From: an uncultured Gammaproteobacteria bacterium
GTDB lineage: Bacteria; Patescibacteriota; Microgenomatia; Levybacterales; UBA12049
Length of the DNA stretch: 64,000 nucleotides
Direction: 5' to 3'
Assembly (NCBI GenBank): GCA_964610465.1
Contig: CAZSWA010000004.1
Span: 8,365-72,364 of the forward strand
Shown here: positions 8,992 to 40,517 of the stretch, piece by piece
Layout: each line of letters begins with the position of its first letter
Position numbering within the stretch: position 1 is the first letter of the stretch
Program-made: the position numbers and the translations under genes
Notes under the pieces: generated by a model
The model's database searches: none
Told to the model about the DNA's origin: nothing
What the model saw: only the letters and a program-made list of their open reading frames with translations

Positions 8992-9815
8992 ATAGCGTTT
9001 TGTGTTACCTTTCGCAGTATCTTTCTCATATAAATACCTGATGTCAAAAATGCTGCTTTAAATTCTATAAAACTGTGCGTCCCATCAACTCCCACCCGCG
9101 GAACGAGAAGCGGATTCGTTGATAGAGTAATAAGCTCATCCACTAAAGATAATCCCATTTTAAACCCCGCTTTCTTCACCGCTCTTTGCGCAGGTAGTGA
9201 AAAATAACCCTTCGGATAGGCAAAATAATTAATTTTGCAGTTAAGTTCTTTTTCAAGTTTCTTTTTTGATTGTACTATCTCATAATCAATATCTTTCTGA
9301 GAAATATGTAGGAGATTGGCATGAGTAGCACTATGTGAACCAATTTCCCATCCTGACTTTTGAAGGGTAAGTACTTCTTTTTTTGAAAGAAGCGGTTTCA
9401 TATTATCAAGTTCCTTTCTATTAGGCTTTTGGCTATCTGCAAGTACAAAAAGTATTGGTCTAATACCTAGCTTTTTAAAGTAGTCCTTTGTTTCATACAC
9501 ATCTTTATATCCATCATCAAAAGTAATTACTACTGACTTTCTCTCTATTTTCTTTTGTCTATTTATATATTTATATACATCATCAAGACTTATAAAGTCG
9601 TAATGTTTTCTAAGGTATTCTATTTGAGCCTTAAGTACATCAAAGGGGACAGCAAAACGCCATCTATCCTTTGATATACTGTGATAACAAAGTATTACAA
9701 TTTTATTTTTGTTCGTCAAAATAAGCACTTTATCAAGTAAAAACATACTCGCATACAATGCTTTTCTGGCTTTAAAAAATAACATATTTCTTATAAAATT
9801 TCGTAGAGTACTCAT
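8988..9815 (-). CDS. Polysaccharide deacetylase (CE4, NodB homology domain)
   Basis: 'VVITFDDGYKD' ... 'ILFVLAD' ... 'GWEIGSHSATH' NodB motifs; 4-nt overlap with neighbours (operon). Confidence 0.7.
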   Translation of the reverse strand: MSTLRNFIRNMLFFKARKALYASMFLLDKVLILTNKNKIVILCYHSISKDRWRFAVPFDVLKAQIEYLRKHYDFISLDDVYKYINRQKKIERKSVVITFDDGYKDVYETKDYFKKLGIRPILFVLADSQKPNRKELDNMKPLLSKKEVLTLQKSGWEIGSHSATHANLLHISQKDIDYEIVQSKKKLEKELNCKINYFAYPKGYFSLPAQRAVKKAGFKMGLSLVDELITLSTNPLLVPRVGVDGTHSFIEFKAAFLTSGIYMRKILRKVTQNAI

Positions 9816-12800
9816 GCTTTCTCAGCCTCCATAAAGATAAGATTTTTGAGTAATTCCTGTTGAGCCTGTCCTCTTACTGTATTTTCTATAATGGTTGCAA
9901 ATAAGGTTGCACTTTCATCCCAATCAAAATTCTTCGACCAGACAAATGCATTTCTGGAAAGTGTTTGCAGGTAAAATGAGTCATTGATAAGAAACTGCAT
10001 CGCACTGGTAAAATCTTTAATACTATGAGGCTTGACCAAAATTCCTGTTTTTCCATCCAGTACTGAATCAGATAATCCATTTACTTTTGATGCAATTACC
10101 GGTGTACCTGAAGCATTCGCCTCAATTACCGTAATACCCCAACCTTCAACTTCAGACGGTTGTAAAACTGCCCAGCTTTCGGAAAGAAGTGATGCTTTTT
10201 TCTTTTCATTTACTTTTCCCAGGAAATTTACTTGTTTTTGTATACCCAATTTTTTTACCAGTCTGGTAAGGCTTTTTAATGAATCTCCTTCGCCTGCTAT
10301 GGTAAGTCGCGCAGCTGGAACTGTTTTAAGAAGAAGTGAGAAAGCATTTATAGCAATATCAATATTTTTATAGGGTTTAAGTCTTCCTAAGTAGGCAAAT
10401 GATGGGTAAGGTGTCTTTTGTCCTGGTGTAAATCGTTGAGAATTTATCCCGTTGTAGATTATCTGAATTTGTTGTGAACTTGAAAAGCCCAGTTTATAGA
10501 TTTCCTTTCTTGATGACTCAGACACTGTAATAATGCTTTTATTTTTATACAGAAATGGCATACACTTAGCTTCAAGAAATTCAGCAACCTGAGCCAGCGG
10601 AAATGACAGATACCTTCTAAATACTTCCTGATGCACATGATGCACTACAAGAAATACAGGTTTTTTTACATATAAAGGACTGAAAAAAGGAATTCCATTC
10701 TCACAATCTATTACCACATCAGTTTTTTGCTTGAAGAAAAGAAGGTAATAAATAAATGCCCATATATATACAGTATATGTACCGCCCCTACGGATAATCT
10801 TCACACCATCTATAATCTGATTTCGAGGATTTTCTCCATCATTTCCGCAAAATACAGTTACACTATTACCTTCTTTAACCCATCGTTTGGCAAGTTCGTG
10901 AATATATACTTCAGCTCCTCCAGCCCAGGTATGTTTGATATCTCGCCAATTAAGAATAAGAACTCCAAGCCTTTTGTCGTGTTTGGGTTTACCTGGCTGA
11001 CTTCCTTTAAAACTTAAAAGATCAGCAAGATTAACTTCTACTACTTTCACAAAACGATAGTTAAGGTGCAAAAGCAACATAATTGCCAGATTTAATATCC
11101 CGGTCCATACCATTGCATTGACAATTGCCTGTATATTTGTATGATTTATTTGGATAAGCACGAATTGTAATCCTATCAAAAGGAAAGATGATATAGTTGA
11201 GGTATATGATTTCAAAGAAAGATAGTAAGATACATATACCCGTGAGATAGTAAAACACATGATAGAAAAAGAAAAAAGAGTAATATAAGAAATGATAATT
11301 GCTGCCTTTCCACCAAAAATTATTGGAAGTGTTTGATAACCGAAGACACCAAATACCAGAAATCCAATAAAGCTTAAGGAAAACGTTGCAGCCAATAAGA
11401 TGTAGAGTGTTTTTGTAGAATCTTTTTTGCCTCCTTCATTGCGACTTACAAGTGGTATGACAAACTGAGTAGAAAGACCTCCTAAGAAAAATACCATTTT
11501 GCCAACTAGTGAAATAAGCGCATATTTCCCTGCATCCTCTGCGGATAGATAATGTTTTGCAAGCATAATATCTAAACTCATAAACGCTAAAGTAGAAAGA
11601 CCTGACAATATGGAAGCAAGGAAATAATTATTAGGAAACTTTTTTACTTCCTGCTCATATTCTTTTTTAAGAATCGGGACTTGTTTTCTGCCTACAAGCA
11701 AAAAACTGAGAACAAATGCTAAGACAAAAGAAAGCGGAATAGAAATATACACTAACTCCGGAAGATTCAATTTAACAAATACAAACGCACTAATAAATTT
11801 GATAAAAGGTTCAAAAATAGTAAGGAGTGCGAGAGTTCCAAACATAAATTTTCCATAGAGATAACCCTTATCAACTGAAAATGCAAATCCAATAATCCAT
11901 ACAAAAACAAAAATGACAAAAGGTATAATGCTGTCTGACTTAAAATATTTTACAAGAAACGGTGAGGCACATAACCATAATGCAGAGATTATCAACGCAA
12001 AGTAGAATGAATTTTTGCGAATATGTTTCCAGAAATAAAATGCTGATATTTCTCCGTATTGTCCATCTAAAAATGCGCTCTTATAATTTACCGTTGAGTT
12101 AAGTGCTGCAAAGGGAATATTAGAAATAAATAAAAGGCTTGAAATAAGACTTATGAAACCAAAGTCAGCCAAATCTACTTCCTTGCCAACATATAAATTG
12201 AAGGCGAGATTGAGAACATTTGCTCCAAAACTTGCGACAACAAGAATTCCAGCTGAAAAAAGACCATTTTTAACTGCATTCTTAAAATTCAATTTTTGAT
12301 ATATTCCTGAAAAATCAGGGATAACTGAAGGAACTGGACGTGGCGGCATAAATGGTTTTTGTTGTTCTTTGAGTTTTGATTGCTGAGTCCTTTTTATTTC
12401 CGGTTTTGTCTTAAGATGAAGTCCATGTACTGTTTTCTCCCAATAATGAGGTTTAAAAAGCAGCTGTTGTATCGCAACAAGCGCCGCAATACTCATAAGA
12501 AGCCAATAGAACGGGATAAGTAGTGAATATTTCACCAGTGACCATTGATTTCTTTTGGCACAGCCAATCATGTAGTAATAAAGAAAAAGAAAATTTCCAA
12601 AGACAAAGGCAAAAATTGCCAGATAAAAATAAGGAACAAGGTACAGCGATTCAATGGTTGGTCCAAATATAGGATAAAATCCAAAATACAAAATAGTAAC
12701 AAGCCATAAGAAAGGATTTATCAGAAGAAACGCGAGCTTTCCACCTACAGTCATTTGGAAAATAAGCTCGTGATGCAACCCTTTTTTCCTGATAAATGTC

Positions 12801-14638
12801 CAGGAATTTCTCATATTCACAAGGTACGTCTGCATATAGCCTTTTATCCAGCGTGAACGCTGTCTTAACCAATTAGGAACTTTACTATTCGCTTCCTCAA
12901 GAGTGGTAGAGTCAATAACTGCCGTTTTATACCCTTGCTGGAATAAGCGGGTACCCAAATCCGCATCTTCTGTTACATTAAAAGGATCCCAACCTTGAAG
13001 TTCACGAAGATTTTTTGTTTTGAAATGATTACTTGTCCCGCCAAGAGGTAAGGCAGAATTAAGCGATTGAAGTCCTGTAAGCGTCAAATCAAACCACAAT
13101 GAGTATTCAGCGGTAAAAAAACGGGTAAGGAGATTCTGAGTTGGATTGTAGTAATTGAGCTTTGCCTGCATGCATTTCACATCACCTGGTGCCTTCTGGA
13201 AAGCAATATAGGCTTTCTTAAGTTGAAGTGGATCAGGCATGTCTTCTGCATCATAAATTACAAGATAATCACCTTTGGCAATTGCCAAACCATAATTACA
13301 GGCTTTAGGTTTTGTCTTTGGAGCTGAATTAGGTACTATTACTTTTCTAAAGTAGAAAGGTAATTTCATCTTCTTTATCGTATCTATGGTTTCAATATCA
13401 TCTTCTTCAAGAAGGAGTATTACATCAAGCTTGTTTTTAGGCCAGTCCAGCCTTGAGATAGCTTCAATAAATTGAGGTACTACATGTGCTTCTTTATACA
13501 AAGGACAAAGTATAGAGTAGATAGGAAGTGCAATTTCTGCAATCTCTGCAATTTCCTTATCCTCAAATATAATTTCAGCTGGTTTTCGAAGGCTCCGTAA
13601 GACAACGAATAAGTTAAAAACCGTATCAATAAAATAAATGATACTTAAGACTGAAACAACAATTCGAAGTGTATCAAGTGTATCTGCAATGAACCCTGCA
13701 ATAACTGTAAGAATAATCGTCAGAAGTCCAAGCTGCTGCCAGAAGTTCATTGTTTGAAGCGCAGAAAGATGAAGAGGCAGTGTAGTATGAGTAATATATT
13801 TCTTTTTTTTATAGCCAATACCTGCTCCTTGCATTGAGCTGTATTGTTTAGGTGGCACAATCATAGGAGGCATTTTTTTCATTTTGAGTCGCATAGCATT
13901 TGTTCCTATTTCAAGTGAACTTCTTGTGACGGACACCTTTGAATCCCCATATGCACGCGGAGCAAATACGATATCATAATTAGCAAGGGTAAAACCGGCT
14001 TGACGAGCCCTATGGAGAAATTCAAGATCAAAAGTCCACGCAGATGTAGGCTTAAATTTTATCGTTTCATATACCTCTTTTGTAAATACTTTAAGACCCG
14101 CTTGAATATCATTGGTTAATCCAAACATCATCTTTCCAAAGAGATAACGGAATGCTCTACTGACTGTTCTTCGCACAAATGATTCTTTATTCTTCTCTCT
14201 ATTCGCAACAACCACATCACTTTCTTTTAGCATTTTTACCATGGGGAGAATAGCATTTGGAGGATACTGTAAATCACCATCAATCATAACGAGGATATTG
14301 CCTGTGGCTTTCTGAAATCCTTCAATAAGAGAGTATGCTTTGCCTTTTCTACCTATTTTTCTGTACACTCTGACAAATTTGAGTTTTTGCAGTTTCTTAA
14401 GAATGCTAAACGTTCCATCTGTTGAGTAATCATCAACATAAATTATTTCAAATTGTTTTCCAGTCTTATTAAGCGTCTTTACCAGTTCTTTATGTAAAGA
14501 TTTAATATTATCAGCCTCATTATACAAAGGCACAATAACGCTTATACTTTGGTTTTTTGTGAACACAGTTCTCATCTTTCTCTGTTTCAGGCAGGAATTA
14601 GTGAAGTCTACGATAGTTCTTAATTGGGGAGTATTCAT
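9812..14638 (-). CDS. Giant 1608-aa fusion: GT2 (DPM1-like) + TM + processive GT2 (D,D,D,QRSRW) + MOP/Wzx-like polysaccharide flippase TM domain + C-terminal GT4 (GT-B)
   Basis: 'VIVPLYNEADNI...YVDDYSTDGT...DGDLQYPP'; second GT2 'ILCPLYKEAHV...YDAEDMP...TEDADLG...QRSRWIKG'; ~14 TM flippase-like block; C-terminal 'EGWGITVIEANASGTPVIAS' GT4 motif; uninterrupted ORF. Confidence 0.75.
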   Translation of the reverse strand: MNTPQLRTIVDFTNSCLKQRKMRTVFTKNQSISVIVPLYNEADNIKSLHKELVKTLNKTGKQFEIIYVDDYSTDGTFSILKKLQKLKFVRVYRKIGRKGKAYSLIEGFQKATGNILVMIDGDLQYPPNAILPMVKMLKESDVVVANREKNKESFVRRTVSRAFRYLFGKMMFGLTNDIQAGLKVFTKEVYETIKFKPTSAWTFDLEFLHRARQAGFTLANYDIVFAPRAYGDSKVSVTRSSLEIGTNAMRLKMKKMPPMIVPPKQYSSMQGAGIGYKKKKYITHTTLPLHLSALQTMNFWQQLGLLTIILTVIAGFIADTLDTLRIVVSVLSIIYFIDTVFNLFVVLRSLRKPAEIIFEDKEIAEIAEIALPIYSILCPLYKEAHVVPQFIEAISRLDWPKNKLDVILLLEEDDIETIDTIKKMKLPFYFRKVIVPNSAPKTKPKACNYGLAIAKGDYLVIYDAEDMPDPLQLKKAYIAFQKAPGDVKCMQAKLNYYNPTQNLLTRFFTAEYSLWFDLTLTGLQSLNSALPLGGTSNHFKTKNLRELQGWDPFNVTEDADLGTRLFQQGYKTAVIDSTTLEEANSKVPNWLRQRSRWIKGYMQTYLVNMRNSWTFIRKKGLHHELIFQMTVGGKLAFLLINPFLWLVTILYFGFYPIFGPTIESLYLVPYFYLAIFAFVFGNFLFLYYYMIGCAKRNQWSLVKYSLLIPFYWLLMSIAALVAIQQLLFKPHYWEKTVHGLHLKTKPEIKRTQQSKLKEQQKPFMPPRPVPSVIPDFSGIYQKLNFKNAVKNGLFSAGILVVASFGANVLNLAFNLYVGKEVDLADFGFISLISSLLFISNIPFAALNSTVNYKSAFLDGQYGEISAFYFWKHIRKNSFYFALIISALWLCASPFLVKYFKSDSIIPFVIFVFVWIIGFAFSVDKGYLYGKFMFGTLALLTIFEPFIKFISAFVFVKLNLPELVYISIPLSFVLAFVLSFLLVGRKQVPILKKEYEQEVKKFPNNYFLASILSGLSTLAFMSLDIMLAKHYLSAEDAGKYALISLVGKMVFFLGGLSTQFVIPLVSRNEGGKKDSTKTLYILLAATFSLSFIGFLVFGVFGYQTLPIIFGGKAAIIISYITLFSFSIMCFTISRVYVSYYLSLKSYTSTISSFLLIGLQFVLIQINHTNIQAIVNAMVWTGILNLAIMLLLHLNYRFVKVVEVNLADLLSFKGSQPGKPKHDKRLGVLILNWRDIKHTWAGGAEVYIHELAKRWVKEGNSVTVFCGNDGENPRNQIIDGVKIIRRGGTYTVYIWAFIYYLLFFKQKTDVVIDCENGIPFFSPLYVKKPVFLVVHHVHQEVFRRYLSFPLAQVAEFLEAKCMPFLYKNKSIITVSESSRKEIYKLGFSSSQQIQIIYNGINSQRFTPGQKTPYPSFAYLGRLKPYKNIDIAINAFSLLLKTVPAARLTIAGEGDSLKSLTRLVKKLGIQKQVNFLGKVNEKKKASLLSESWAVLQPSEVEGWGITVIEANASGTPVIASKVNGLSDSVLDGKTGILVKPHSIKDFTSAMQFLINDSFYLQTLSRNAFVWSKNFDWDESATLFATIIENTVRGQAQQELLKNLIFMEAEKA

Positions 14639-14983: not shown

Positions 14984-16027
14984 TTACCCTTTTGAAGCCA
15001 GTTTATAGTAGCTGGTTTTTGTTTTTCCAAATTTCCTGAGCATTCCTTTTGATACAAGAGATGAGAGAAGTGCATGAGCTTGCTGTCTGCTTACCTTAAA
15101 GGACTCTTCAATATCTGAAGATTTTACTGCCTTTTTATCTATCACAATCTGGAGTACTTCTTCTTCTCTTGGGGTTACCAGTACTCGCTTTTCTCCTTCA
15201 AACTCATCAAGCATAAACCTACGGAGTTCATCAATTCTCCCAATAGCAGACTGCAATGAACTTGCAATTCCTTCCAGGAAATACTCAAGCCATACGGTAT
15301 TTTCACCCGTATCTGCAGTATGCAGCATATCAGAATAGGTAAGTCTATCTACATCATAATAGTCATCAAGAATAAAGTACTTTGAAACTTCATAATGCTC
15401 ACGCAAAAGATAATAGGTAGTAAGAAGTCTTGCCAGTCTTCCGTTTCCATCAAAGAACGGATGGATATAGGCAAATTGATGATGCAGTATCCCTGTTTTC
15501 AGCATAGGATGAAGTTCTTTCTCAGTTGTAAGCCATGTATAAAGCTCAGTTAGTGCTTCTTTTATCTCTTTGGCAGTATGAAAAGGAGGATTGTGTTTGA
15601 CCACATATTCACCGCTTTCTTTATGTCCCACAAAAACAGGACCATCACGCACTGTCCCTAAGTCTTTATGTTCTATACCCTCCATAAGACGATGATGTAG
15701 CTTTTCTGTAAGCTCTACGGTTATAGGTACCTGTTCACGTGCCATATTGGTTAGTGAAGTAAGAACTAGAAAGTAATTTTTAACTTCCCGCTCAGATTTT
15801 GTAGTAGGTATTCTATCTCCTAGAATCACGTTTGTGACATCTTGAGGAGAAAGGGGATTCCCTTCAATACTGGTTGAGTAATGAGTTGCCAGTATCTGGT
15901 TTTCCTGAAAAAGTCGGAGGGTAAGAGAAGGGATGAGTTTTTCTGACTGAATTTGACCGTACAATCTTTCTATTGTACCCAAGGTGTTGAGTATACGGAA
16001 TGTAAGCTTAAATTGAGGCTGAAACAT
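14984..16027 (-). CDS. fic: Fic/Doc family protein (AMPylator-type) with N-terminal inhibitory motif and C-terminal wHTH
   Basis: Canonical 'HPFFDGNGRLARLL' Fic motif; N-terminal 'STSIEGN' = [ST]xxxE[GN] auto-inhibitory helix motif. Confidence 0.85.
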   Translation of the reverse strand: MFQPQFKLTFRILNTLGTIERLYGQIQSEKLIPSLTLRLFQENQILATHYSTSIEGNPLSPQDVTNVILGDRIPTTKSEREVKNYFLVLTSLTNMAREQVPITVELTEKLHHRLMEGIEHKDLGTVRDGPVFVGHKESGEYVVKHNPPFHTAKEIKEALTELYTWLTTEKELHPMLKTGILHHQFAYIHPFFDGNGRLARLLTTYYLLREHYEVSKYFILDDYYDVDRLTYSDMLHTADTGENTVWLEYFLEGIASSLQSAIGRIDELRRFMLDEFEGEKRVLVTPREEEVLQIVIDKKAVKSSDIEESFKVSRQQAHALLSSLVSKGMLRKFGKTKTSYYKLASKG

Positions 16028-16495: not shown

Positions 16496-16657
16496 ATGGC
16501 AAAGAGAACTGCCCGTAGAGTACATCATACAAAAGCTCATCATCCTGTACATCACAGATTGCACAAACCTGTAAACAATGTAGTTGGTTATAGTATCATT
16601 TTTGCAGTAGCAGCAATTGTATTGGTAATGGTAATGAGTTTTGCAGGAGCCAACTAA
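16496..16657 (+). CDS. Small His-rich, C-terminally membrane-anchored protein (53 aa: MAKRTARRVHHTKAHHPVHHRLHKP...)
   Basis: Strong SD AAAGGAGG 7 nt upstream of ATG; below the 60-aa ORF-track cutoff; 7 His in first 25 residues then hydrophobic helix. Confidence 0.5.
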   Translation: MAKRTARRVHHTKAHHPVHHRLHKPVNNVVGYSIIFAVAAIVLVMVMSFAGAN

Positions 16658-17214
16658 GAAGAAATTGCCTGTGCAAAAATTAAAAGCCTTTTAAGTGAAG
16701 TGCCAATAGGAGTACATGTTTGGAGTATAAGTTGATTTTTGTTGGTCTGAATAAGATAACTTATTTCATTAGGCCATATTTCTTTTTTGTTAATAACTTT
16801 ATAAATATATTGTTTATTGTTGTAAGTGATATAGATTAAATCTGCTTTTGTTAACTCTCCTAAACGGAGGAAGATAGTGTTGTAATGTGTTGTTTCCCAG
16901 GGCATTCCTGACGAATGAGCAAAAAGGTAAATTGTACCTTCTTCACCAGGAAGGGATGTATTTTTTGCTTGTGCAACTCCTTTCATAAGTGCACTTCTAT
17001 ATATCGCTTCATTAAATGGATCTACATTAAGAATAATTGGAGCTTGAGCGTGAATTTTTGGAATAGTAATAAATGTTCCTTTAAGTGTTGAGATAGTACG
17101 AATTTGTGGAGGAAAAATATATATAAAGATAATTGGGTAAAGGATATAACCAAGGCTTAGAAGTGAAACAAGTATCATAATATTTCCAAGATAATAGAGA
17201 AATTTATTTTTCAT
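16654..17214 (-). CDS. Sortase (second copy), N-terminal TM anchor
   Basis: 'LILQTCTP' TLxTC active site, 'LFAHS' His, Arg near C-terminus; heads cluster of repeat surface proteins. Confidence 0.7.
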   Translation of the reverse strand: MKNKFLYYLGNIMILVSLLSLGYILYPIIFIYIFPPQIRTISTLKGTFITIPKIHAQAPIILNVDPFNEAIYRSALMKGVAQAKNTSLPGEEGTIYLFAHSSGMPWETTHYNTIFLRLGELTKADLIYITYNNKQYIYKVINKKEIWPNEISYLIQTNKNQLILQTCTPIGTSLKRLLIFAQAISS

Positions 17215-17369: not shown

Positions 17370-18500
17370 TTAGAAGTTAAATCCGGGAGAATTTCCGGAG
17401 CGTAGTCTTAGATAAGCGCCCAGAATAAACATTAATATATTGCCAAATATTGCAATAAGTAACCAGTTATTTCCAGTTGCAGGGAGGATATTTGATGCGG
17501 CTGCACCTAATACTTGTCCGGCAGCTGCCAATGCTGTTGCAGGTCCCGAACTGACTCCAGATGAACTGGGAGATGGAGCAGAAGTCGGTTGAGATGAAGA
17601 ACTTGTAGGAGGAACTTGTTGCTCTTGTTTTTGCTGACAGCAGGTGATTGTTACTGCGCTTACATTTATTGGACCATTCTCAATTGATGTATTTGCCAAG
17701 ATATTCCCCGTTATAATACTCACTGTTCCTACGTTTCCATTTGCATTATTTTCTCCGGTATTCAGTTTATAACTTATTTCGTTAAGGACGACATTTGCCA
17801 TATTATTGACAAGTACGTTTGTAAAATTATTCCCGTTTATATGTACGTCATTTGTAGAATCTGCGCCGTTCCCGGATATTTTTACATTGACATCTCCGTT
17901 GCTATTTTGGGGAACGGTAACATCTGAGACATTGATAGGACCGTTTTTTATATTGGTATTTACTGATATATCTCCAGTATGTATAGAAGTATTTCCGGTA
18001 TTATCATTTGCATTATTGCGCCCCGTGTTAAGATTACCACTAATATGATTGGTTATTTCTGCATTTTGAGTAACGCTTACATTAGTTTGTGAAGAATTAT
18101 TAACTGTTACACTATTATTTGAACCAGAACCATTGCCGCTTATTGTAGCATTAGTTGAGGGTGGAGTAGAACAACAGGAATTATTGACCGTTGAACTATT
18201 CGCATTATTACTTATATTTGTTGATGAGTTTGCATTGCCAGTTGCGATATTGGTACTTCCGTTTGTATTATTTGAAGCGGTATTGCTTCCTGTATTTGCC
18301 GAAGAACTTACTGTATTATTTACGTTTGCGTTATTTGATTGTTGTACAGTAGTTTGGGGAGCAGAAGAAACATTTGCAGTGCTACTTGAACCAGAACCAT
18401 TACCGGTAATACTTATATCATCGGCATGCACTTTTGGTACATAAAGAACGATAAAAAGTAAAAAGCTTGTGGTAATAAATGCTGTTTTTCTATATTTCAT
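17370..18500 (-). CDS. Secreted Asn/Thr/Ser-rich repeat surface protein with C-terminal LPATG sorting signal
   Basis: Signal peptide; two ~70-aa internal modules (...NTG(R/E)NNAN(D/G)N(T/V)G..SI.TG.I..NTSI.NGPINVS.VT...); Ser/Pro-rich linker; 'LPATGNNW' + TM + 'RLRSGN' tail. Confidence 0.7.
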   Translation of the reverse strand: MKYRKTAFITTSFLLFIVLYVPKVHADDISITGNGSGSSSTANVSSAPQTTVQQSNNANVNNTVSSSANTGSNTASNNTNGSTNIATGNANSSTNISNNANSSTVNNSCCSTPPSTNATISGNGSGSNNSVTVNNSSQTNVSVTQNAEITNHISGNLNTGRNNANDNTGNTSIHTGDISVNTNIKNGPINVSDVTVPQNSNGDVNVKISGNGADSTNDVHINGNNFTNVLVNNMANVVLNEISYKLNTGENNANGNVGTVSIITGNILANTSIENGPINVSAVTITCCQQKQEQQVPPTSSSSQPTSAPSPSSSGVSSGPATALAAAGQVLGAAASNILPATGNNWLLIAIFGNILMFILGAYLRLRSGNSPGFNF

Positions 18501-18580
18501 AATACAGTTTATAAAGTAAGTAATAAATTTATTCAGTAATACACCTTACAGTGAGGCAGTTAATGTAAGTATGTGACAGC

Positions 18581-20848
18581 TTAGATTTTCTTAAGAAAAG
18601 TGCGATATAGTATTTTTCTTCCAACCCATGCAAGAGTAATCAATGGAAGAATGATTAATAACCATGCAAGATTTATAACAATATGTTGTTTCTGTGTGCT
18701 ATTGCTTATTAATGCTTTGGCAATCAGATTTCCATGATTTGGAATATTTGTACTAATTCCTGCTACTTGTGTTCCACCAGTTACTGAAGAATGGGATGTA
18801 CCATTGGTAAAGGTTGTATTAATAGAGCGCAAAATGCCTTGATTACCATTGATATCAGCTGCACTGACGCCATTGTTTAATGAATTATTGCTTATGTTGT
18901 TTTGGCTATTTTGTATTGTAGTATTAGAATTTTGTGTATTGTTTGCAACAGTTTGTTGATTTTGGTTATTATTACTGCTTGGTTCACTTTGCCCTGGAGT
19001 TACAAAATCCCCAAGCCATTTGCCAAATACATTTACTACCGTTACTACAAGGTGGCCATTGCCAACGATATTATTGTTCACAAAGTTTACAATGTTGGCA
19101 ATAATATTGGCATCACCTGTTTTGACATAGGTATTTCCGCCAGTGTTGTCATCTGCAGTATTGTTGCCGGTATTTGCACTAAGATTTAAATTATTGACAA
19201 TATTGGCAGTATTATTTTGTACAGTTGTTGTGTTATTTGACTGATTAATACTCGTATTGTTAGTACTACCTGCGCCATTGGTGTCATTAGATGCAGTGAC
19301 TTGTCCATTTTGGTCAACGGTAAAACTTGTGCCATTTGACCCTGCATAGTTTTGTCCATCCGGAGCGCCAAGAATTTTTCCAACCCATTGTCCAGCCTGA
19401 TTAACGAGTACTAACCACCATGTACCGCCATTCACATTGGAATTGGCAACATTGAGAACATGAGCATTCATATCAGTATTGCCGGTCGTAATATTGTTAT
19501 CACCATTGGTATTTCTGCTGGATTCATTATTGCCGCTATTGGCATCAAATAGGATATTGTTGGTAATTGAAGCATCGTTCGTTTGGAAACCGTTATTATT
19601 CAGTTGTGAAGAAAGAGTAGCATTATTGGTTGAATTTGTACCGTTTCCAGTATTGGCAACAGTTGTTCCACCGGTTAATGCAGCAACTTGTGACTCTGGT
19701 AATACAATATTGCCTTCAAGATTGCCATAAATATTTACTACTCCCAGCGTTACATTCCCTGCAAAGTTATTATTGGCAAAAGTGTATGCGTTCGCATCAA
19801 CATTGGCGTTGCCTGTCTTTATAGTAGTATCTCCACCGGTATTCTGACTTGCAATATTACTTCCAGAATTGGCTGAGAGAGTCATATTGTTACCAACTCC
19901 TGCTGTGTTGGTTTGCACTGTTGAGTTATTGTTTTGGCTGCTAAGAGAAGCGCTGTTGGTAGAATTTGCACCGTTTCCGGTGTTGGCAAGAGTGCTTGTA
20001 CCACCGGGGCATCCTGATACACAATTAGCTGCAAAATCCAGTACATAATCGCCTTTATGATCATCTGCAATATTAAATTCTGAAAGCATTACGCCGCTCA
20101 TATTGGTATTAAGAGTAGTTACTGCTGTACCTGAAGTATTGGCGTCTCCCGTATTGATAAACGAGGTACCGACATTTTGGGAAGCAGAGTTACTACCTGT
20201 ATCTGTTCCTTGTATCATGTTATTTCTAACATTACCAGTATTATTTTGTTGAGTAGTATTGTTATCACTTACTGTTGCCGATGAGTTATTATTTGAATTA
20301 GCTCCATTTCCAGAATTTATAATTGTGGCACCCTTCCCGGAATCACCAGCAGGAGCTACAGATGCATTATTATTGGCATCAGTAGTCACAATTGCAGAAT
20401 TTGTGGTAATCCCTGTATTGATAGTAGTATCACCAGTTTGACCATTGGAACTTTTCCCTGTTGTCTGAGGTAAAGAATTATTGTTTGGATTGTTTGTAGA
20501 ATTTGAGGGATTACTATTATTATTAGTAGAAGTAGATTGTTGATTATTTGTATTAACATTCTTTATTCCATCAGTATCCGTTTTTGGAGTTTGCGTAGGT
20601 GTTAGAGTTACACCAAGTGTAACAGATGGCGTTGAGGAAGGCGCACTTGGGGGTGTCGGTTGATTAACATCAACAGATGGAGGTGCTGGAGGTGGAGGCT
20701 CAGTTGGCGCAGCTGGTGCTGAAGGTGGAGGAACTATATCATCAGCGAGAACTGCTGCAGGCGTCACAATCGTTTGCATAAAAAGCAAACTTGCGATTGA
20801 AATAAGTGCGATTGATTTTTTAATTTTTATTATCATTTTATTATTCAT
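18581..20848 (-). CDS. Large secreted repeat protein (755 aa): signal peptide, Pro-rich PPPSAP linker, many Asn/Thr/Gly-rich modules, C-terminal TM + basic tail
   Basis: Shares 'TGNN..N.NTGG.T.I.TGNA' module with neighbours; C-terminal hydrophobic helix + 'GRKILYRTFLKKI'; no canonical LPXTG seen. Confidence 0.6.
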   Translation of the reverse strand: MNNKMIIKIKKSIALISIASLLFMQTIVTPAAVLADDIVPPPSAPAAPTEPPPPAPPSVDVNQPTPPSAPSSTPSVTLGVTLTPTQTPKTDTDGIKNVNTNNQQSTSTNNNSNPSNSTNNPNNNSLPQTTGKSSNGQTGDTTINTGITTNSAIVTTDANNNASVAPAGDSGKGATIINSGNGANSNNNSSATVSDNNTTQQNNTGNVRNNMIQGTDTGSNSASQNVGTSFINTGDANTSGTAVTTLNTNMSGVMLSEFNIADDHKGDYVLDFAANCVSGCPGGTSTLANTGNGANSTNSASLSSQNNNSTVQTNTAGVGNNMTLSANSGSNIASQNTGGDTTIKTGNANVDANAYTFANNNFAGNVTLGVVNIYGNLEGNIVLPESQVAALTGGTTVANTGNGTNSTNNATLSSQLNNNGFQTNDASITNNILFDANSGNNESSRNTNGDNNITTGNTDMNAHVLNVANSNVNGGTWWLVLVNQAGQWVGKILGAPDGQNYAGSNGTSFTVDQNGQVTASNDTNGAGSTNNTSINQSNNTTTVQNNTANIVNNLNLSANTGNNTADDNTGGNTYVKTGDANIIANIVNFVNNNIVGNGHLVVTVVNVFGKWLGDFVTPGQSEPSSNNNQNQQTVANNTQNSNTTIQNSQNNISNNSLNNGVSAADINGNQGILRSINTTFTNGTSHSSVTGGTQVAGISTNIPNHGNLIAKALISNSTQKQHIVINLAWLLIILPLITLAWVGRKILYRTFLKKI

Positions 20849-20931
20849 GTTTTACTTTTAATTACTTTTTATATTTTCGTCTTTTTGTAGGGCACCTCAC
20901 CGAAGTGCTAGCAAAGCGCCCTACCTAAAGA

Positions 20932-22197
20932 CTATCCAAGATGGAGAAAGTGTAATAAATCTCCGAGATCGAAAGAAAGTGACATTCCTCCGACTGAGAG
21001 TCCACCTTGTGAGAAAATATTCTCGTTTGCGTGATTACTGATAGTTGTATCAGCACTTGCATCGCCTGAGAATACATCTACTGGATCACCAGATCGTGCT
21101 CCTGCATCGTTTCGGTTTGCATCGTTATCACCAGTCTTTAAATTGTTGTTATTCACATCATTCCTAAGATTAGCGATATTCCCCAAACCTTCCCGTCCTC
21201 CTTGGTACACATCAAATGTACCTCCGAGTGTTGCATCAATGTCGTTGTCTGATTCAGATCCGTTACCAGAAATTTTTGCGGTTACATCACCGAGTAAGCA
21301 TCCACAATCGAGAGCGGCTGCATTGAAATTCGCCATATTGCGAATATCAGTTGTTGCATTTGCATTACCTGTGTAGACTGTTACATCTCCACCTGTATTG
21401 TCATTTGCATCATTGTTGCCGGTTCTAAGATCGTTAGTTACTCTATTGGTGATCCGTGCGTTATTGTCTTGCACTACAGTAACTGCTGGATCATTTCTGA
21501 GTGAAATAGAATTATCACTGAATGAGCCATTGCCTGAAATTACTGCATTAAGACTACCGCCTGTTCCGTTTCCATTTCCGCCAACCATCACAACATTTGC
21601 ATTTGCTCTATTATCAATAGAGGTATTGGATGTTGCATTACCAGTAAGTACAGTTACTGTACCACCAGTGTTTCGGTTTGCGTCATTGTTTCCAGTATTT
21701 TCGCGGTTATCTACATTGTTGTTGATAATCGCGTCGTTTGTCTGGAAAACTTGAGTAGAACCAGAATTGTTGAGTCTTACATCATTGTCAGAATGAGAAC
21801 CATTACCAGAAATAGTTACCTTTGTGTTACCTGCGGTTCCGCAGCTACCACATCCGCTTACACTGGCTTCGTTTCTATTTACTGCTGTTGAAAGATCAAC
21901 AGTTGATGAAGCTGCCCCTGTGTTCACAGTTACATCTCCACCTGTGTTGTCGTTAGCTCTATTATTTCCAGTATTTGCAGTTGTATTTACAGTGTTGGTA
22001 ACGTTTGCTGTATTGTTCTGAACAACACTTGTACTGTTACTAGAAGTAACATGAACGTCACTATCGCTGCTACTGCCATTTCCAGAAATAGTAAGATTTG
22101 TGTCGGCTAATGCCAAAGGTGCTAACGCATTAAGTAAGACTGCTCCGGTCGCTATTGCTGTTGCAAATTTGGTTTTATATGTCATTATATATTTCAC
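20932..22197 (-). CDS. Secreted repeat protein (421 aa), five-plus 'ISGNGS.SD.DV...TGNNDANDNTGGDVTV.TGNA' modules, paired Cys (CGSCG, DCGC)
   Basis: Signal peptide (ALA|DT); tandem ~65-aa modules homologous to 17370..18500 and 18581..20848 proteins. Confidence 0.6.
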   Translation of the reverse strand: MKYIMTYKTKFATAIATGAVLLNALAPLALADTNLTISGNGSSSDSDVHVTSSNSTSVVQNNTANVTNTVNTTANTGNNRANDNTGGDVTVNTGAASSTVDLSTAVNRNEASVSGCGSCGTAGNTKVTISGNGSHSDNDVRLNNSGSTQVFQTNDAIINNNVDNRENTGNNDANRNTGGTVTVLTGNATSNTSIDNRANANVVMVGGNGNGTGGSLNAVISGNGSFSDNSISLRNDPAVTVVQDNNARITNRVTNDLRTGNNDANDNTGGDVTVYTGNANATTDIRNMANFNAAALDCGCLLGDVTAKISGNGSESDNDIDATLGGTFDVYQGGREGLGNIANLRNDVNNNNLKTGDNDANRNDAGARSGDPVDVFSGDASADTTISNHANENIFSQGGLSVGGMSLSFDLGDLLHFLHLG

Positions 22198-22552
22198 CTC
22201 CTTCCTTTATGTGGTCTTGTAGAAAACTACAAGCACTTCTTTTCCCGTTTTCATTAAAAAAACGGAAGACACTCTCTCTAACTAATTGTTAGGAAGAGTA
22301 ACATCCGTTCTTTATGTGTTTCGTTTTATCTGTAACATCGGTTGAAATGTATCTCATTTCGTTCATTTATTCAGTAATTCTCCTTACAGGTTTAGTTGAT
22401 GAGCCACAAAAAAAAGGCACCCTTTTGTGAATATTCTTTCTAAGAATTATTCAGAAAAAGATGCCTCCGTTTGCGGTCAGCTCTTAATTTTGATTATTTA
22501 ATTTTTAAACTGCTGTACGTGTTTACCGGTACTAAATATACTTAACTCAAAA

Positions 22553-22774
22553 TCATTTGTCAATACCCATTTTTATATTTACATGTGATTTTCCATTATT
22601 TCCATTGTGATGGAAATTATTGAGAGTTTTTCTAATGTTTCTTTCTGTAATTTGGACTACTTTATTCTCTTGTACAAAAATCTCAACACTTCCAAAACCT
22701 CTAATATTTTTTAACGCATCAATAATTTCTTCAATTAATTTGGTACTGATTTTTTCAGTAGAATAATCTGTCAT
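22553..22774 (-). CDS. Small hypothetical protein (73 aa)
   Basis: ORF only; no recognised motif. Confidence 0.3.
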   Translation of the reverse strand: MTDYSTEKISTKLIEEIIDALKNIRGFGSVEIFVQENKVVQITERNIRKTLNNFHHNGNNGKSHVNIKMGIDK

Positions 22775-22794: not shown

Positions 22795-23640
22795 CTATTT
22801 TAAATTAAGCTTAAGAGAATCTTTTTTGCCGTTAATTTCTCCAACCTGTAACTCAAGAGTCTTGTAATTGTCATCTATCGGGAAACCGATTCTGGTATAT
22901 TTGGTCGATGTTGCCTGTACCTCAACTGGATCATTATGAATCTCAGGAGCAAGTTTTTCATTTGCGCCATTTACCACAAGTCTTACATAATCACGTGCGT
23001 TAAGAGAAATTCCTTTTGTATAGTCATTAGTAATTTTTAAATTAAGTATCAAAAATGTTCTTCCCTTGACTGCAGTTGCTTCCTGTCCTTTAATAAGAAT
23101 TACGTCCCTTTGTTCTGCATTTTGTATTTGATATTTTATCGTACTTAATTTATTTCCACTTGCATCAGTGATTGGAAATTCATACGTTTTATTAAGCGTC
23201 TGTGAAGCAATCGGCTTATTAAGATTCAAACGGCTCTCTACTGTGCCTAGAATTTTTGATGAACCATGAGTTGCATTCTGATAGAGCAAATAGATAACTG
23301 TGGCAAGAAGTATCACAATAACTGTGTAAGGAAGAAAAAATGGATTTTTAAAAAATCCTTTTGAAGTATGTTTTGCAGTATGAGTTGCTGAAGGAGATAC
23401 AGCTTCTTGAGAAAAAAATGCAATATTATTTATATCTATAGTAACTGCTTGTAATGAAGTCTCAGTTGTAATTTGCAGATTATTTTTATTTTTTATAAGA
23501 GAAAAGATTTTCCCTATAAATTCTTTTACCTTTGTTCCAAATATTTCAAAAGACAGTTGTGATCTTTGTGAACTGAAAGAGGATTGAAAGGTTGTTACAA
23601 ATTGTTTCATAAAAATATGATGATAATTGCTCCAGCGCAT
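22795..23640 (-). CDS. Membrane-anchored hypothetical protein (single TM, extracytoplasmic beta-rich C-terminal domain)
   Basis: One central hydrophobic helix 'YTVIVILLATVIYLLY'; no catalytic motif recognised. Confidence 0.4.
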   Translation of the reverse strand: MRWSNYHHIFMKQFVTTFQSSFSSQRSQLSFEIFGTKVKEFIGKIFSLIKNKNNLQITTETSLQAVTIDINNIAFFSQEAVSPSATHTAKHTSKGFFKNPFFLPYTVIVILLATVIYLLYQNATHGSSKILGTVESRLNLNKPIASQTLNKTYEFPITDASGNKLSTIKYQIQNAEQRDVILIKGQEATAVKGRTFLILNLKITNDYTKGISLNARDYVRLVVNGANEKLAPEIHNDPVEVQATSTKYTRIGFPIDDNYKTLELQVGEINGKKDSLKLNLK

Positions 23641-37569: not shown

Positions 37570-37726
37570 AATGGTATATATTGACGCTCAGAGAGCGAAA
37601 CGCACCACACGCAATTCTATAGTTTTTCGCAATCCTTGCGTTTGTTTGCATTCCTTAAATGAATAGGTGGATTATAAATCCAGCGACAAGCATGGAAACA
37701 GGAACACCTATTTCCATGAGTAGGAA

Positions 37727-38062
37727 GTGCATATAGTCTTCCGTGTTGACCTTGTGGTACTGGTAGCAGATTGCACCTCGACCCTAGCGCGTCAGTTTAA
37801 AATCACTGGCGAAATCCACACTACAGAAAAGAGAAGACTAACGCAGGAGTGGGCAGCAGCATTCTTAGCCGCTGGGTTCAATGGAATCCGCTACTTCGTT
37901 CGCAATGACACCTCTCTAACTCTTGTTGGAATAGCCCTCTTTTATACGGCTGGACAAGCATCATGGCCTGTCATTAAGACTGAACCCATTAGCGATGCAC
38001 TTATCGCCAAAGCGGAGCAGGTATTCGGGATCAGGGTTGCGCCTCCCACCAGCATACTCTGA
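37727..38062 (+). pseudogene. RES-domain toxin, 5'-truncated (C-terminal ~100 aa only)
   Basis: 'QEWAAAFLAAGFNGIRYFVRNDTSLTLVGIALFYTA' matches C-terminal region of RES/MbcT-type toxins; begins exactly at island left edge. Confidence 0.5.
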
Positions 38063-38628
38063 CACATGCCTGATGTCGCACAATCTACAATTTGAGACGT
38101 GGAAATACCGTCTTGAGGCTAGGGCTTCTTACGTAACGTATCCTTATAACTGCCAAATCCCCTGCTATGGGATGTATGGCATTTTGGCACTAGGCCGGGG
38201 TTTTATGGGATCTGAAGTGTTGCCTTTAGTATTGACGGTACATCCATTGCCTTACATACGGGAGATATAGATTGGTATGCCGCATTATCTTGGTCTGTGC
38301 GAACGACGGCTGTTGGTCCCGAAAGCATGGGCCTCGTCGCACCACCAACAACATAGGCTCTGACAGTGCCGCCGCGCAATTGATCCTCGAATATTGGCAA
38401 ACTCGGCCAATGGGCCTGCCGTTGAATGTTTTCTGGTCTGAGGTGATAGATGACCTGCCAATAGTACTCACGAGGCGGCTCCGACGGCTTGTTGCCAGTC
38501 ACGTACCAGCCGTAAACTGACAATCGCCGAATGATGTCAGGTGGGTTGGGCAAGATGTAGCTGAACGATGACCGAATCTCAACGTCCCACGTTAGCGCCT
38601 GATCACTGATGCGCAGATCGTACAAGTC

Positions 38629-39213: not shown

Positions 39214-39296
39214 CCAGAAAGAACGTGGATAGAATACGTCAAACTCATTGTCACAGAGAGCGATGTGAGACTTAAATGTTGATGTCCGACTAAGAC

Positions 39297-39325: not shown

Positions 39326-39335
39326 AACATTATAT

Positions 39336-40509: not shown

Positions 40510-40517
40510 TATGCGTA

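What the first reader, a model, noticed from the sequence alone, without database searches (positions are those of the whole stretch)
17370..22197. Three paralogous secreted proteins built from ~65-70 aa Asn/Thr/Gly modules, possibly a new beta-solenoid repeat family
All three proteins reuse a module of the form 'ISGNGSxSxNxV...NTGxNNANxNTGGxVTVxTGNAxxNTSI'. There are 2 copies in the 376-aa protein, at least 5 in the 421-aa protein and many in the 755-aa protein, with clear internal tandem duplication at DNA level. Regularly spaced Gly/Asn and alternating polar/hydrophobic residues suggest a beta-helix or solenoid. Paired cysteines (NNSCCST, TITCCQQ, CGSCG, DCGC) mark module boundaries. I do not recognise this module as a named domain.
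Basis: seen in the sequence. Interest (0 to 1): 0.7.

Follow-up and report, generated by a model that had tools for sequence, protein, structure and literature searches.

The report
New beta-solenoid surface proteins of Microgenomates
Three neighbouring genes of an uncultured ultra-small (Microgenomates/CPR) bacterium encode secreted proteins built from a real, so far unnamed ~90-residue repeat that is predicted to stack into a flat beta-solenoid; with a sortase they form a gene cassette conserved across this bacterial group and probably make its main surface fibre or coat.

Summary
The three minus-strand ORFs exist exactly as given and share a real module. An HMM built only from foreign single-module proteins scores it 37-112 bits, against 7.7 bits or less in 900 shuffles. 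The copy numbers are 3, 4 and 4, not 2, at least 5 and many. The repeat period is 88-110 aa with a 76-aa core. There is no tandem duplication at DNA level.

No Pfam, NCBIfam or PDB sequence match exists. About 3,500 50%-identity clusters carry the module, and every one that carries a name is a CPR 'hypothetical protein'.

The gene order C(417 aa) - B(755) - A(376, LPATG) - sortase recurs across Microgenomates. It is preceded by a membrane DUF4352-like protein, DUF2292 and a structured RNA leader. Only C has a very strong Shine-Dalgarno site.

Best reading: C is the abundant subunit of a surface fibre or layer, B tethers it to the membrane, and A to the cell wall through sortase. This is inferred, not shown.

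The parts
20932..22185 (-). Gene C (417 aa from ATG 22185; the ORF list starts at GTG 22197). It encodes a signal peptide, four modules and a conserved C-terminal tail ending in a short amphipathic helix, with no anchor. It is the proposed major, abundant subunit.
   Evidence: 674+ orthologs of about 410 aa, 45-58% identity; AF2 pLDDT 80.1; unique extended SD
21871..22098 (-). C module 1 (core)
21595..21822 (-). C module 2 (core)
21322..21549 (-). C module 3 (core)
21025..21282 (-). C module 4. It is divergent, with two insertions that are conserved across the family (GGxxxxxG and xxxxDP). It may be a terminal or cap rung.
18581..20848 (-). Gene B (755 aa). It encodes a signal peptide, a Pro-rich linker, a half-module, four modules each followed by a conserved hydrophobic insert, an N/Q/S/T-rich spacer, and a C-terminal INLAW motif with a transmembrane helix and basic tail.
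20099..20326 (-). B module 1
19766..19993 (-). B module 2
19436..19663 (-). B module 3
19061..19294 (-). B module 4
18584..18676 (-). B C-terminal tail: INLAW, a hydrophobic helix and a basic end. The tail is conserved in B orthologs. It is either a membrane anchor or an unrecognised sorting signal.
   Evidence: no NCBIfam sorting-signal model matches
17370..18500 (-). Gene A (376 aa). It encodes a signal peptide, three modules, a Ser/Pro-rich wall-spanning linker and an LPATG cell-wall sorting signal.
18192..18419 (-). A module 1
17925..18152 (-). A module 2
17661..17888 (-). A module 3
17373..17486 (-). A sorting signal: LPATG (17472-17486), a hydrophobic segment and the RLRSGNSPGFNF tail
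   Evidence: LPxTG + TM + YLRLRSGRSP is conserved in A orthologs
16654..17214 (-). Sortase (186 aa) with an N-terminal TM segment and the residues His100, Cys167 (QTCTP) and Arg176
   Evidence: Pfam PF04203 E 1.7e-20; NCBIfam sortase_fam 57.3 bits above its cutoff of 39.35; residues; adjacent to A in 34 of 63 related loci that have room
22186..22563 (-). 5' leader of gene C. It contains a sigma70-like promoter (TTGACA-17-TATATT, 22563-22535) and two conserved-type long hairpins followed by U-tracts (22408-22481 and about 22254-22309). It also contains GAAGTG plus a short hairpin (22216-22239) and the extended SD AAGGAAGGAGGTGA (22194-22207).
   Evidence: no Rfam family
22553..22774 (-). Small DUF2292 protein (73 aa), found upstream of C in 59 of 73 related loci
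22795..23640 (-). Single-pass membrane protein with an extracellular DUF4352-like domain. It lies upstream of C in 73 of 73 related loci.
   Evidence: 6 of 14 orthologs match PF11611, best E 4e-5; the window copy itself does not

Best explanation
This is the core of a cell-envelope gene cassette that is conserved across Microgenomates (CPR). All three proteins are exported by Sec. Their ~90-residue modules each form one very wide, flat coil. Each coil has two long beta-arms joined by the SGNGS and NTGGD turns, with small, Asn and Gln side chains pointing inward. Successive modules stack in register, giving a two-sheet parallel beta-solenoid 'plank'.

C (four coils, no anchor) is made in large amounts and is the bulk subunit. 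B (four and a half coils, C-terminal membrane helix) tethers the structure to the membrane. A (three coils, LPATG) is covalently attached to peptidoglycan by the co-encoded sortase and tethers the structure to the wall. C is retained by stacking its open coil edges onto the homologous coils of A, B or other C molecules. The result would be a surface fibre or layer.

What is shown:
- the module itself;
- the paralogy of the three proteins;
- the sorting signal on A;
- the sortase;
- the synteny;
- the translation signals.

What is predicted: the fold.

What is inferred by analogy:
- co-assembly of the three proteins;
- the fibre or layer;
- the roles of B and C.
For: **The module**
- It is real and specific.
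- It has a 21-residue run in which every second position is conserved (T.V.Q.N.A.V.N.V.A.A.T), while the alternate positions are variable and polar. That pattern fits a scaffold with a buried face and no conserved outer binding surface.
- The module contains no sub-repeat.

**The fold**
- The AF2 model has pLDDT 80.1 and pTM 0.75, with equivalent 31-33-residue beta runs in all four modules.
- In a DCA run on 1,064 modules, 12 of the top 30 pairs lie on one antiparallel ladder (i+j = 104-107) centred on the NTGG turn.

**Stand-alone modules**
- Full-length secreted proteins with only one module exist. Examples are 121 aa on a 433-kb contig and 106 aa on a 143-kb contig. A single coil cannot form a parallel sheet alone, which argues for intermolecular stacking.

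**Synteny**
- B follows C in 71 of 72 loci that have room.
- A-type proteins follow in 43 of 63, a sortase in 40 of 63, and a three-module A plus sortase in 34 of 63.
- The named genomes are Levy-, Davies-, Woese-, Gottesman-, Chisholm-, Roizman-, Shapiro- and Curtissbacteria.

**Anchoring**
- A orthologs keep LPxTG + TM + basic tail.
- The sortase has its H/C/R residues.

**Expression signals**
- The SD duplex of C is -18.4 kcal/mol, against -9.8 for the next best of 45 window genes.
- Across 81 loci the median for C is -18.1, against -2.6, -3.2 and -3.8 for B, A and the sortase.
- C also has a conserved structured leader.

**Literature**
- Sortase is near-ubiquitous in Microgenomates, and the families enriched there are mostly hypothetical or membrane proteins (PMC6744442).
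Against: - There is no experimental datum of any kind.
- The fold is a prediction, and the first, shallower alignment gave only pLDDT 57.
- The tools returned no coordinates. The reading 'one module = one coil' therefore rests on DSSP strings, residue periodicity, the DCA ladder and the poor global superposition on canonical beta-helices.
- Several top DCA pairs (7-27, 8-52, 7-56) do not fit that geometry. They probably reflect differences between paralog types.
- C has no recognisable anchor or binding domain.
- Module 4 of C and its C-terminal helix look like a specialised end, which could cap the molecule and keep it monomeric.
- A and the sortase are missing next to C-B in about a third of loci.
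- High expression is inferred from the RBS only.
Confidence: 0.5

Rival explanations
1. The proteins are independent monomeric surface adhesins or a passive surface coat. Each protein would be a self-contained beta-helix stalk, as in autotransporter passengers, TPS exoproteins or serine-rich-repeat adhesins. The three would be displayed separately: A on the wall, B on the membrane, and C released or loosely bound. They would bind host cells or particles without co-assembling.
For: - Module 4 of C and its C-terminal helix could be a cap.
- A and the sortase are dispensable in about a third of loci.
- CPR bacteria are thought to live attached to hosts (PMC6744442).
Against: - The outward-facing positions are the variable ones, and no conserved binding surface or extra ligand-binding domain is present.
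- The fixed gene order, fixed module numbers and the strongly skewed translation signals (C far above B and A) suggest defined stoichiometry in one structure.
- Single-coil family members are hard to explain as monomers.
Confidence: 0.25
2. C is specifically the S-layer protein of Microgenomates, forming a two-dimensional lattice. B and A would be lattice anchors rather than parts of a one-dimensional fibre.
For: - C has an exceptional SD and a structured 5' leader. From my own knowledge, S-layer genes commonly have these.
- C is highly conserved in length and sequence.
- A preprint reports predicted S-layer proteins in Patescibacteria (10.1101/2024.05.28.596244).
- Cryo-EM of groundwater ultra-small cells showed a distinct surface layer (Luef et al. 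2015, recalled; the paper is not held).
Against: - There are no SLH or other known S-layer anchoring domains.
- Lattice formation cannot be tested here.
- Edge-to-edge stacking of solenoid coils gives filaments more naturally than sheets.
- I could not check whether the Patescibacteria S-layer candidates in the preprint are this family.
Confidence: 0.2
3. The fold call is an artefact. The proteins would be low-complexity Asn/Thr/Ser-rich, possibly glycosylated, largely disordered wall-associated polymers (mucin-like), and AlphaFold stacks the repeats spuriously.
For: - The composition is strongly biased.
- The first AF2 run was of low confidence.
- AF2 is known to over-stack repeats (my own knowledge).
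- A very large multi-domain glycosyltransferase lies 2.7 kb downstream of the sortase.
Against: - Conservation is position-specific, with near-invariant N, Q, G, T and A at fixed spacing over thousands of clusters. This is not a compositional effect.
- Confidence rose to pLDDT 80 and pTM 0.75 when diverse sequences were added.
- An independent DCA ladder supports the hairpin-shaped rung.
- The glycosyltransferase is not a conserved neighbour.
Confidence: 0.05

Closest known systems
Curli (CsgA major subunit, CsgB cell-associated nucleator; Curlin_rpt PF07012)
   Same: - Both are secreted Asn/Gln/Gly/Ala-rich repeat proteins.
- Both are predicted two-sheet parallel beta-solenoids with inward N/Q ladders.
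- Both systems pair an abundant free subunit with homologous cell-bound minor subunits.
   Different: - There is no sequence relation. Pfam gives no hit and hhalign probability is below 1%.
- The rung is about 90 aa here, against 19-23 aa in curli, and has no sub-repeat.
- The organism is monoderm-type and uses Sec plus sortase, not the CsgG/E/F outer-membrane pathway. No csg-like neighbours are present.
- Amyloid behaviour has not been tested.
Streptomyces chaplins (long ChpA-C with LPXTG, short secreted ChpD-H; PF03777)
   Same: One repeat domain is used both in sortase-anchored multi-domain proteins and in short secreted proteins with one or a few domains. A conserved Cys pair is associated with the domain. 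In chaplins the proposed logic is that anchored paralogs tether a polymer of free paralogs (my own knowledge of the chaplin system).
   Different: The domain is unrelated: there is no Pfam hit and it is 76-90 aa rather than about 40 aa. The lineage and composition differ. Chaplins are hydrophobic surfactant amyloids, whereas these proteins are highly polar.
Sortase-assembled Gram-positive pili
   Same: The operon contains several secreted paralogous structural proteins plus a dedicated sortase. One member carries an LPXTG + TM + basic tail.
   Different: Only A has a sorting signal, whereas pilus subunits all need one. There are no CnaA/CnaB-type Ig domains and no pilin motif. The sortase class is unresolved: class C is the best NCBIfam hit, at 66.9 bits against a cutoff of 160.
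Monomeric parallel beta-helix proteins (SufB/SufD, RTX beta-roll, TBCC/CAP, FHA/TPS, autotransporter passengers, pectate-lyase-like)
   Different: At most 146 residues align, with high rmsd. Foldseek TM is 0.10 or less and no hit reaches E 1e-3. The coil length here is about four times larger. No sequence family matches.
Archaeal sheath (SH) proteins of Methanothrix/Methanospirillum
   Same: They form a surface layer from several highly expressed paralogs that share a two-sheet amyloid-like core. The paralogs are predicted to join edge to edge into a continuous cross-beta structure (PMC11576556).

Membership tests
Curli / Curlin_rpt (PF07012) | Sequence match to the curlin repeat (S-x5-Q-x-G-x-G-N-x-A-x3-Q) | tested here: not met
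   No Pfam hit at E up to 1.
Curli / Curlin_rpt (PF07012) | Rungs of about 19-23 residues (strand-turn-strand) | tested here: not met
   The period is 88-110 aa. No internal sub-repeat is detectable.
Curli / Curlin_rpt (PF07012) | Dedicated CsgG/CsgE/CsgF secretion-assembly genes nearby | tested here: not met
   The neighbours are a sortase, a DUF4352-like TM protein and DUF2292. No csg-like genes occur in four annotated loci.
Curli / Curlin_rpt (PF07012) | Forms amyloid fibres | not testable with these tools
   This needs ThT/EM on purified protein.
LPXTG sortase substrates | C-terminal LPXTG, then a hydrophobic segment, then a basic tail | tested here: met
   This applies to A only: LPATG at aa 339-343, followed by NNWLLIAIFGNILMFILGAYL and RLRSG. 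The signal is conserved in orthologs. B and C lack it.
LPXTG sortase substrates | Cognate sortase with catalytic His, Cys (TLxTC-like) and Arg | tested here: met
   PF04203 E 1.7e-20. TIGR01076 scores 57.3 against a cutoff of 39.35. His100, Cys167 and Arg176 are present. Catalysis itself was not tested.
Sortase-assembled pili | All subunits carry sorting signals; the major pilin has a pilin-motif Lys and CnaA/CnaB-type domains | tested here: not met
   C and B have no LPXTG. No pilin or Cna Pfam domains are present.
Sortase-assembled pili | Class C (pilin-polymerising) sortase | tested here: inconclusive
   The best NCBIfam class hit is class C at 66.9 bits, but the cutoff is 160. Class D scores 55.6.
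Pectate-lyase-like right-handed beta-helix (Pfam Beta_helix and relatives) | Sequence match to the family, and three-sheet coils of about 22 residues | tested here: not met
RTX beta-roll (HemolysinCabind PF00353) | GGxGxDxUx nonapeptides that bind Ca2+ | tested here: not met
S-layer proteins | Known anchoring domains (SLH etc.) | tested here: not met
   No Pfam or NCBIfam hit.
S-layer proteins | Forms a 2D crystalline lattice and is among the most abundant cell proteins | not testable with these tools
   Only indirect evidence exists: a unique strong SD and a structured leader.
Chaplins (PF03777) | Chaplin domain sequence | tested here: not met
   No Pfam hit.

The most novel reading that the evidence does not exclude
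The cassette would encode a so far unrecognised kind of bacterial surface polymer. It would be a cross-beta (amyloid-like) ribbon or sheet built from giant ~90-residue solenoid coils. An abundant free subunit (C) would polymerise by coil-edge stacking on homologous membrane-anchored (B) and sortase-anchored (A) primers. Its synthesis would be controlled by a new conserved RNA leader. This would be the molecular identity of the characteristic envelope layer of Microgenomates and, through one- and two-coil relatives, of other CPR bacteria.
Probability: 0.25. Interest if true: 0.8.

Novelty: new variant of a known kind. Interest (0 to 1): 0.62.

Why it matters
CPR bacteria make up a large share of bacterial diversity, are almost all uncultured, and are thought to live attached to other cells. 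The proteins of their envelope are essentially unknown.

This analysis provides three things:
- A module family of about 3,500 clusters at 50% identity, with no Pfam, NCBIfam or PDB entry.
- A lineage-wide gene cassette that gives the near-ubiquitous Microgenomates sortase a likely conserved substrate.
- A strong candidate for the most highly translated envelope protein.

If the predicted giant-coil, two-sheet solenoid is right, it extends the known range of beta-solenoid geometry. It would also offer a small, polar, self-stacking building block. The finding makes the nature of the CPR surface layer directly testable by metaproteomics, by recombinant expression of one 390-residue protein, and by cryo-ET.

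Tried and rejected
- **DNA-level tandem repeats.** Tandem Repeats Finder and the direct-repeat search show only weak 60-78% similarity, so recent duplication is rejected.
- **Known protein families.** Pfam-A and NCBIfam on the three proteins gave nothing. Pfam on ten long family members gave only one sub-threshold chance match, DUF7385 at E 0.0033.
- **PDB by sequence.** Neither a single protein nor the module profile gave any hit.
- **Curlin relationship by hhalign.** Rejected.
- **Short rungs inside the module.** hhalign of the module profile against itself found none.
- **First AF2 run with 54 close orthologs.** The confidence was too low to trust. It was repeated with 147 more diverse sequences.
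- **Foldseek against AFDB.** The library was not available.
- **Module in viral contigs.** None was found with the one pattern used.
- **Rfam on the window and on the leader.** No family was found, only chance miRNA-like hairpin hits.
- **NCBIfam sorting-signal models.** These were run on the PEFG-like tails of two single-module proteins, on the GL[SA]xTS tails and on the INLAW tail. There were no hits, so these motifs remain by-eye observations.
- **Module-profile word-index search.** It returned only short proteins because of how candidates are selected. The exhaustive representative search was used for family size instead.
- **Literature.** No paper in the held library was found to describe this module. 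Luef et al. 2015 is not held.
- **DCA.** It was partly useful, but it is confounded by mixing paralog types.
Full report
**1. What is in the sequence**

- A: 17370-18500, 376 aa.
- B: 18581-20848, 755 aa.
- C: 20932-22197, 421 aa from a GTG.

The public version of C starts at the ATG at 22185, giving 417 aa, and that ATG is preceded by a perfect ribosome-binding site. All three proteins are rich in Asn (17-19%), Thr, Ser and Gly. Each begins with a basic and then hydrophobic N-terminus that ends in an A-x-A-type site, read directly from the sequence.

Anchoring on the GNG motif and aligning gives 11 module copies: 3 in A, 4 in B and 4 in C. The consensus is ..ISGNGSxSxNxVxV.....TxVxQxNxAxVxNxVxxxAxTGxNxAxxNTGGxVxIxTGxAxxxVxVxNxxNxN.

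**2. Is the module more than compositional chance?**

I built an HMM only from 30 single-module proteins of other metagenomes, with no window sequence in it. It recovers exactly these 3 + 4 + 4 copies at 37-112 bits each. In 900 residue-shuffled versions of the three proteins the best domain score is 7.7 bits. BLASTP with compositional adjustment gives 1e-29 for A vs C and 1e-16 for B vs C. A six-frame scan finds no further copy in the 64 kb.

- The conserved core is 76 positions.
- The period is about 88-92 aa in A and C and about 110-125 aa in B.
- In B each module is followed by a conserved hydrophobic insert of the type G..L.VVN.FG.W.GD...P.
- B also has a half-module before module 1.

The 'clear tandem duplication at DNA level' is not there. 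TRF finds nothing relevant, and module copies are 60-78% identical over about 60 nt.

Cysteine pairs exist, but only after modules 1 and 3 of A (CC, CC) and of C (CxxC, CxC), and after module 1 of B (CxxxC). These cysteines are mostly invariant or nearly invariant in the C and B families. CC, CxC or CCC also follows the module in many one- and two-module relatives.

**3. Known families**

- Pfam-A and NCBIfam give no hit for A, B or C at E up to 1.
- Ten longer family members give no Pfam hit beyond one sub-threshold chance match (DUF7385, E 0.0033).
- The PDB holds no sequence relative, either for C or for the module profile.
- An exhaustive profile search of 1.84 billion cluster representatives finds 3,519 clusters at E up to 1e-3 and 2,441 at E up to 1e-10. 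These proteins carry 3-10 modules.
- The word-index search adds full-length secreted proteins with a single module (100-146 aa), some on contigs of 143-433 kb.
- Every name attached to any member is 'hypothetical protein' or an automatic label. The named sources are Microgenomates lineages, WWE3 and Parcubacteria.

The module is therefore an uncurated, CPR-centred family.

**4. Fold**

AlphaFold2 on C with 54 close orthologs gave pLDDT 57. With 147 more diverse sequences it gave pLDDT 80.1 and pTM 0.75. Both models are all-beta and show the same pattern in every module:
- a short strand;
- the GNGSxS loop;
- an uninterrupted 31-33-residue beta run;
- short strands around the TG and NTGG turns;
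- an 18-residue strand.

Three observations suggest that one whole module is one very wide coil rather than a stack of short rungs:
- From module position 23 to 43, every second residue is conserved (T,V,Q,N,A,V,N,V,A,A,T) and the alternate residues are variable and polar. That fits one long strand with a buried face.
- A profile-against-itself comparison finds no sub-repeat.
- In a mean-field DCA of 1,064 modules, 12 of the 30 strongest pairs lie on a single ladder with i+j = 104-107, from 48/56-58 out to 27/76. That is a hairpin-shaped rung with NTGG at its tip and the two TG kinks (44 and 61) facing each other.

There are caveats. I had no coordinates. Handedness and the exact packing are unknown. 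Several other strong DCA pairs do not fit this geometry and probably reflect differences between paralog types. There is no sequence relation to curlin repeats.

**5. Genomic context**

Directly downstream of A lies a 186-aa sortase. It matches PF04203 at E 1.7e-20 and the general NCBIfam sortase model above its cutoff, and it has His100, Cys167 and Arg176.

A ends in a classical sorting signal after a Ser/Pro-rich linker: LPATG, a hydrophobic segment and RLRSG. B ends in a conserved INLAW motif, a transmembrane helix and a basic tail, with no LPXTG. C has no anchor. Its tail is conserved and ends in a short amphipathic helix of low model confidence.

I fetched 80 loci from species-representative genomes. 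The named ones are Levy-, Davies-, Woese-, Gottesman-, Chisholm-, Roizman-, Shapiro- and Curtissbacteria. Many others carry obviously mislabelled titles. Among loci with enough flanking sequence:
- B follows C in 71 of 72.
- An A-type protein follows B in 43 of 63.
- A sortase follows in 40 of 63.
- A three-module A plus sortase follows in 34 of 63.

Module numbers and protein lengths are kept across these loci: C has 4 modules and about 410 aa, B has 4-5 and about 700-800 aa, and A has 3 and about 370-410 aa. A orthologs keep LPxTG + TM + YLRLRSGRSP. A minority instead have GL[SA]xTS[SG] + TM + basic tail. A divergently transcribed two-module protein of about 200 aa often follows the sortase, but it is absent from this window.

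Upstream of C, two more genes are conserved:
- A single-pass membrane protein with a DUF4352-like ectodomain is present in 73 of 73 loci.
- A small DUF2292 protein is present in 59 of 73.

Meheust et al. [quoted passage not shown] This cassette gives that sortase a likely conserved substrate.

**6. Expression signals**

Most genes in this window have essentially no Shine-Dalgarno sequence. C has AAGGAAGGAGGTGA, with a duplex energy to the anti-SD of -18.4 kcal/mol. The next best of 45 genes is -9.8, and B and A are at -1.0 and +0.8.

Across 81 loci the median for C is -18.1, and 96% are at or below -12. B, A and the sortase have medians of -2.6, -3.2 and -3.8, and none is at or below -12. This holds even though those three were allowed the best of several candidate start codons.

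The C leader is also conserved:
- a sigma70-like promoter;
- the motif GCUGACCGCAAACGGAGGC;
- a long hairpin;
- GCCUCCGUUUUUUU;
- GAAGUG plus a short hairpin immediately before the SD.

In an alignment of 28 leaders the long hairpin has 21 pairs, the lower 8 almost invariant. Twelve pairs show compensatory changes. No Rfam family matches. The window has two such hairpin and U-tract units (22408-22481 and about 22254-22309).

I read all this as C being by far the most strongly translated member, under leader control. This is inference from sequence signals only.

**7. How it most likely works**

- Shown: the module family, the paralogy, the export and sorting signals, the sortase, and the conserved order and stoichiometry signals.
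- Predicted: a flat two-sheet parallel solenoid with one coil per module.
- Inferred: open coil edges allow like-on-like stacking. Under this reading A (wall-linked by sortase) and B (membrane-tethered) present homologous coils on which the abundant, anchorless C stacks, giving a fibre or layer.

Arguments for stacking:
- Genuine one-coil secreted proteins exist, and they could not form a parallel sheet alone.
- Conservation is confined to the buried face and the turns.
- The same logic operates in curli (CsgA/CsgB), in chaplins (LPXTG-anchored long forms plus short secreted forms) and in archaeal sheath proteins (PMC11576556).

Arguments against:
- The divergent fourth module and the C-terminal helix of C look like a specialised end.
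- A and the sortase are absent in about a third of loci.
- Nothing has been tested experimentally.

I put this explanation at about 0.5. Independent monomeric adhesins or a passive coat get about 0.25. A true two-dimensional S-layer, which overlaps with the main explanation, gets about 0.2. A spurious fold call gets about 0.05.

**8. Comparison, novelty and score**

The system works most like curli or chaplin-type systems, but it fails the membership tests for both, as it does for sortase pili, pectate-lyase-like helices and RTX rolls (see the membership table). Only A qualifies as an LPXTG sortase substrate.

I rate it a new variant of a known kind: a surface beta-solenoid or cross-beta system with sortase anchoring. 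It is built from an undescribed module family with an unusual predicted geometry, and it sits in a lineage-wide cassette that had not been pointed out in the literature I could search.

Interest is 0.62. A CPR or protein-repeat specialist would find it notable, and it is directly testable. The function, however, is still inferred.

Noticed in passing
window 22186-22563 (minus strand); related loci L003-L083 upstream of the C gene: There is a conserved structured 5' leader in front of gene C. It contains the motif GCUGACCGCAAACGGAGGC and a 21-bp hairpin followed by a U-tract. The hairpin's 8 basal pairs are almost invariant, and 12 of its pairs show compensatory changes. GAAGUG plus a short hairpin then lies just before the SD. 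The conserved stem contains an SD-like GGAGG and an anti-SD-like CCUCC, so it could be a terminator/attenuator or an SD-sequestering switch. No Rfam family matches. The window has two tandem copies.
   Followed up: partly
window 20932-22185 compared with all other genes of the window: Nearly all genes of this genome segment lack a Shine-Dalgarno sequence. Gene C has an extreme one, at -18.4 kcal/mol against -9.8 for the next best gene. The contrast holds in 81 related loci.
   Followed up: yes
window 22795-23640 (minus): A single-pass membrane protein with a DUF4352-like ectodomain lies upstream of C in 73 of 73 related loci. It may be an assembly or anchoring partner. The window copy itself has no Pfam hit, but 6 of 14 orthologs match PF11611.
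   Followed up: partly
window 22553-22774 (minus): A small DUF2292 (YezD-like) protein lies between the DUF4352-like gene and the C leader. It is conserved there in 59 of 73 loci. Its function is unknown.
   Followed up: partly
window 18584-18676 (minus); B orthologs in L005-L083: The C-terminus of B carries a strongly conserved K-x-I-x-INLAW motif at the start of a transmembrane helix, followed by a basic tail. It has the three-part layout of a protein-sorting signal, but it matches no known model.
   Followed up: partly
loci L009, L010, L016, L020, L022, L028, L030, L039, L047, L055, L077 (A-position genes): Some A-position proteins end in GL[SA]xTS[SG] + TM + basic tail instead of LPxTG. 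Several of these loci do have an adjacent sortase, so this may be a variant sorting motif. Two single-module relatives (P0142, P0150) end in PEFG + TM + KKR tails.
   Followed up: partly
loci L003, L009, L010, L014, L016, L019-L025 and others, minus strand after the sortase: A divergently transcribed secreted protein of about 200 aa, with two modules joined by a CxC/CCC linker, is a frequent fifth member of the cassette. It is absent from this window, where a Fic-domain gene (14984-16027) follows instead.
   Followed up: partly
window about 37600-43900: This is a GC-rich island (0.46-0.57 against about 0.33 elsewhere) with short, overlapping ORFs. They include a Phd/YefM antitoxin (40088-40369), a PIN toxin (40488-40955) and a RES-domain fragment (43189-43575). 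It looks like a decayed foreign or mobile insertion, not an rRNA operon.
   Followed up: partly
window 1-64000: No tRNA gene (ARAGORN) and no Rfam family at gathering threshold was found in the whole 64 kb.
   Followed up: no
window 9812-14638 (minus): A 1,608-aa protein with several GT2 and GT4 glycosyltransferase domains lies a few kb downstream of the sortase. It is not a conserved neighbour of the cassette in the other loci inspected. A link to glycosylation of the Asn/Thr-rich proteins is pure speculation.
   Followed up: no
loci L007, L012, L014, L016 and others (record titles): Many GTDB representative records that carry this Microgenomates cassette are titled 'uncultured Gammaproteobacteria bacterium'. 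These are probably mislabelled MAG submissions.
   Followed up: no
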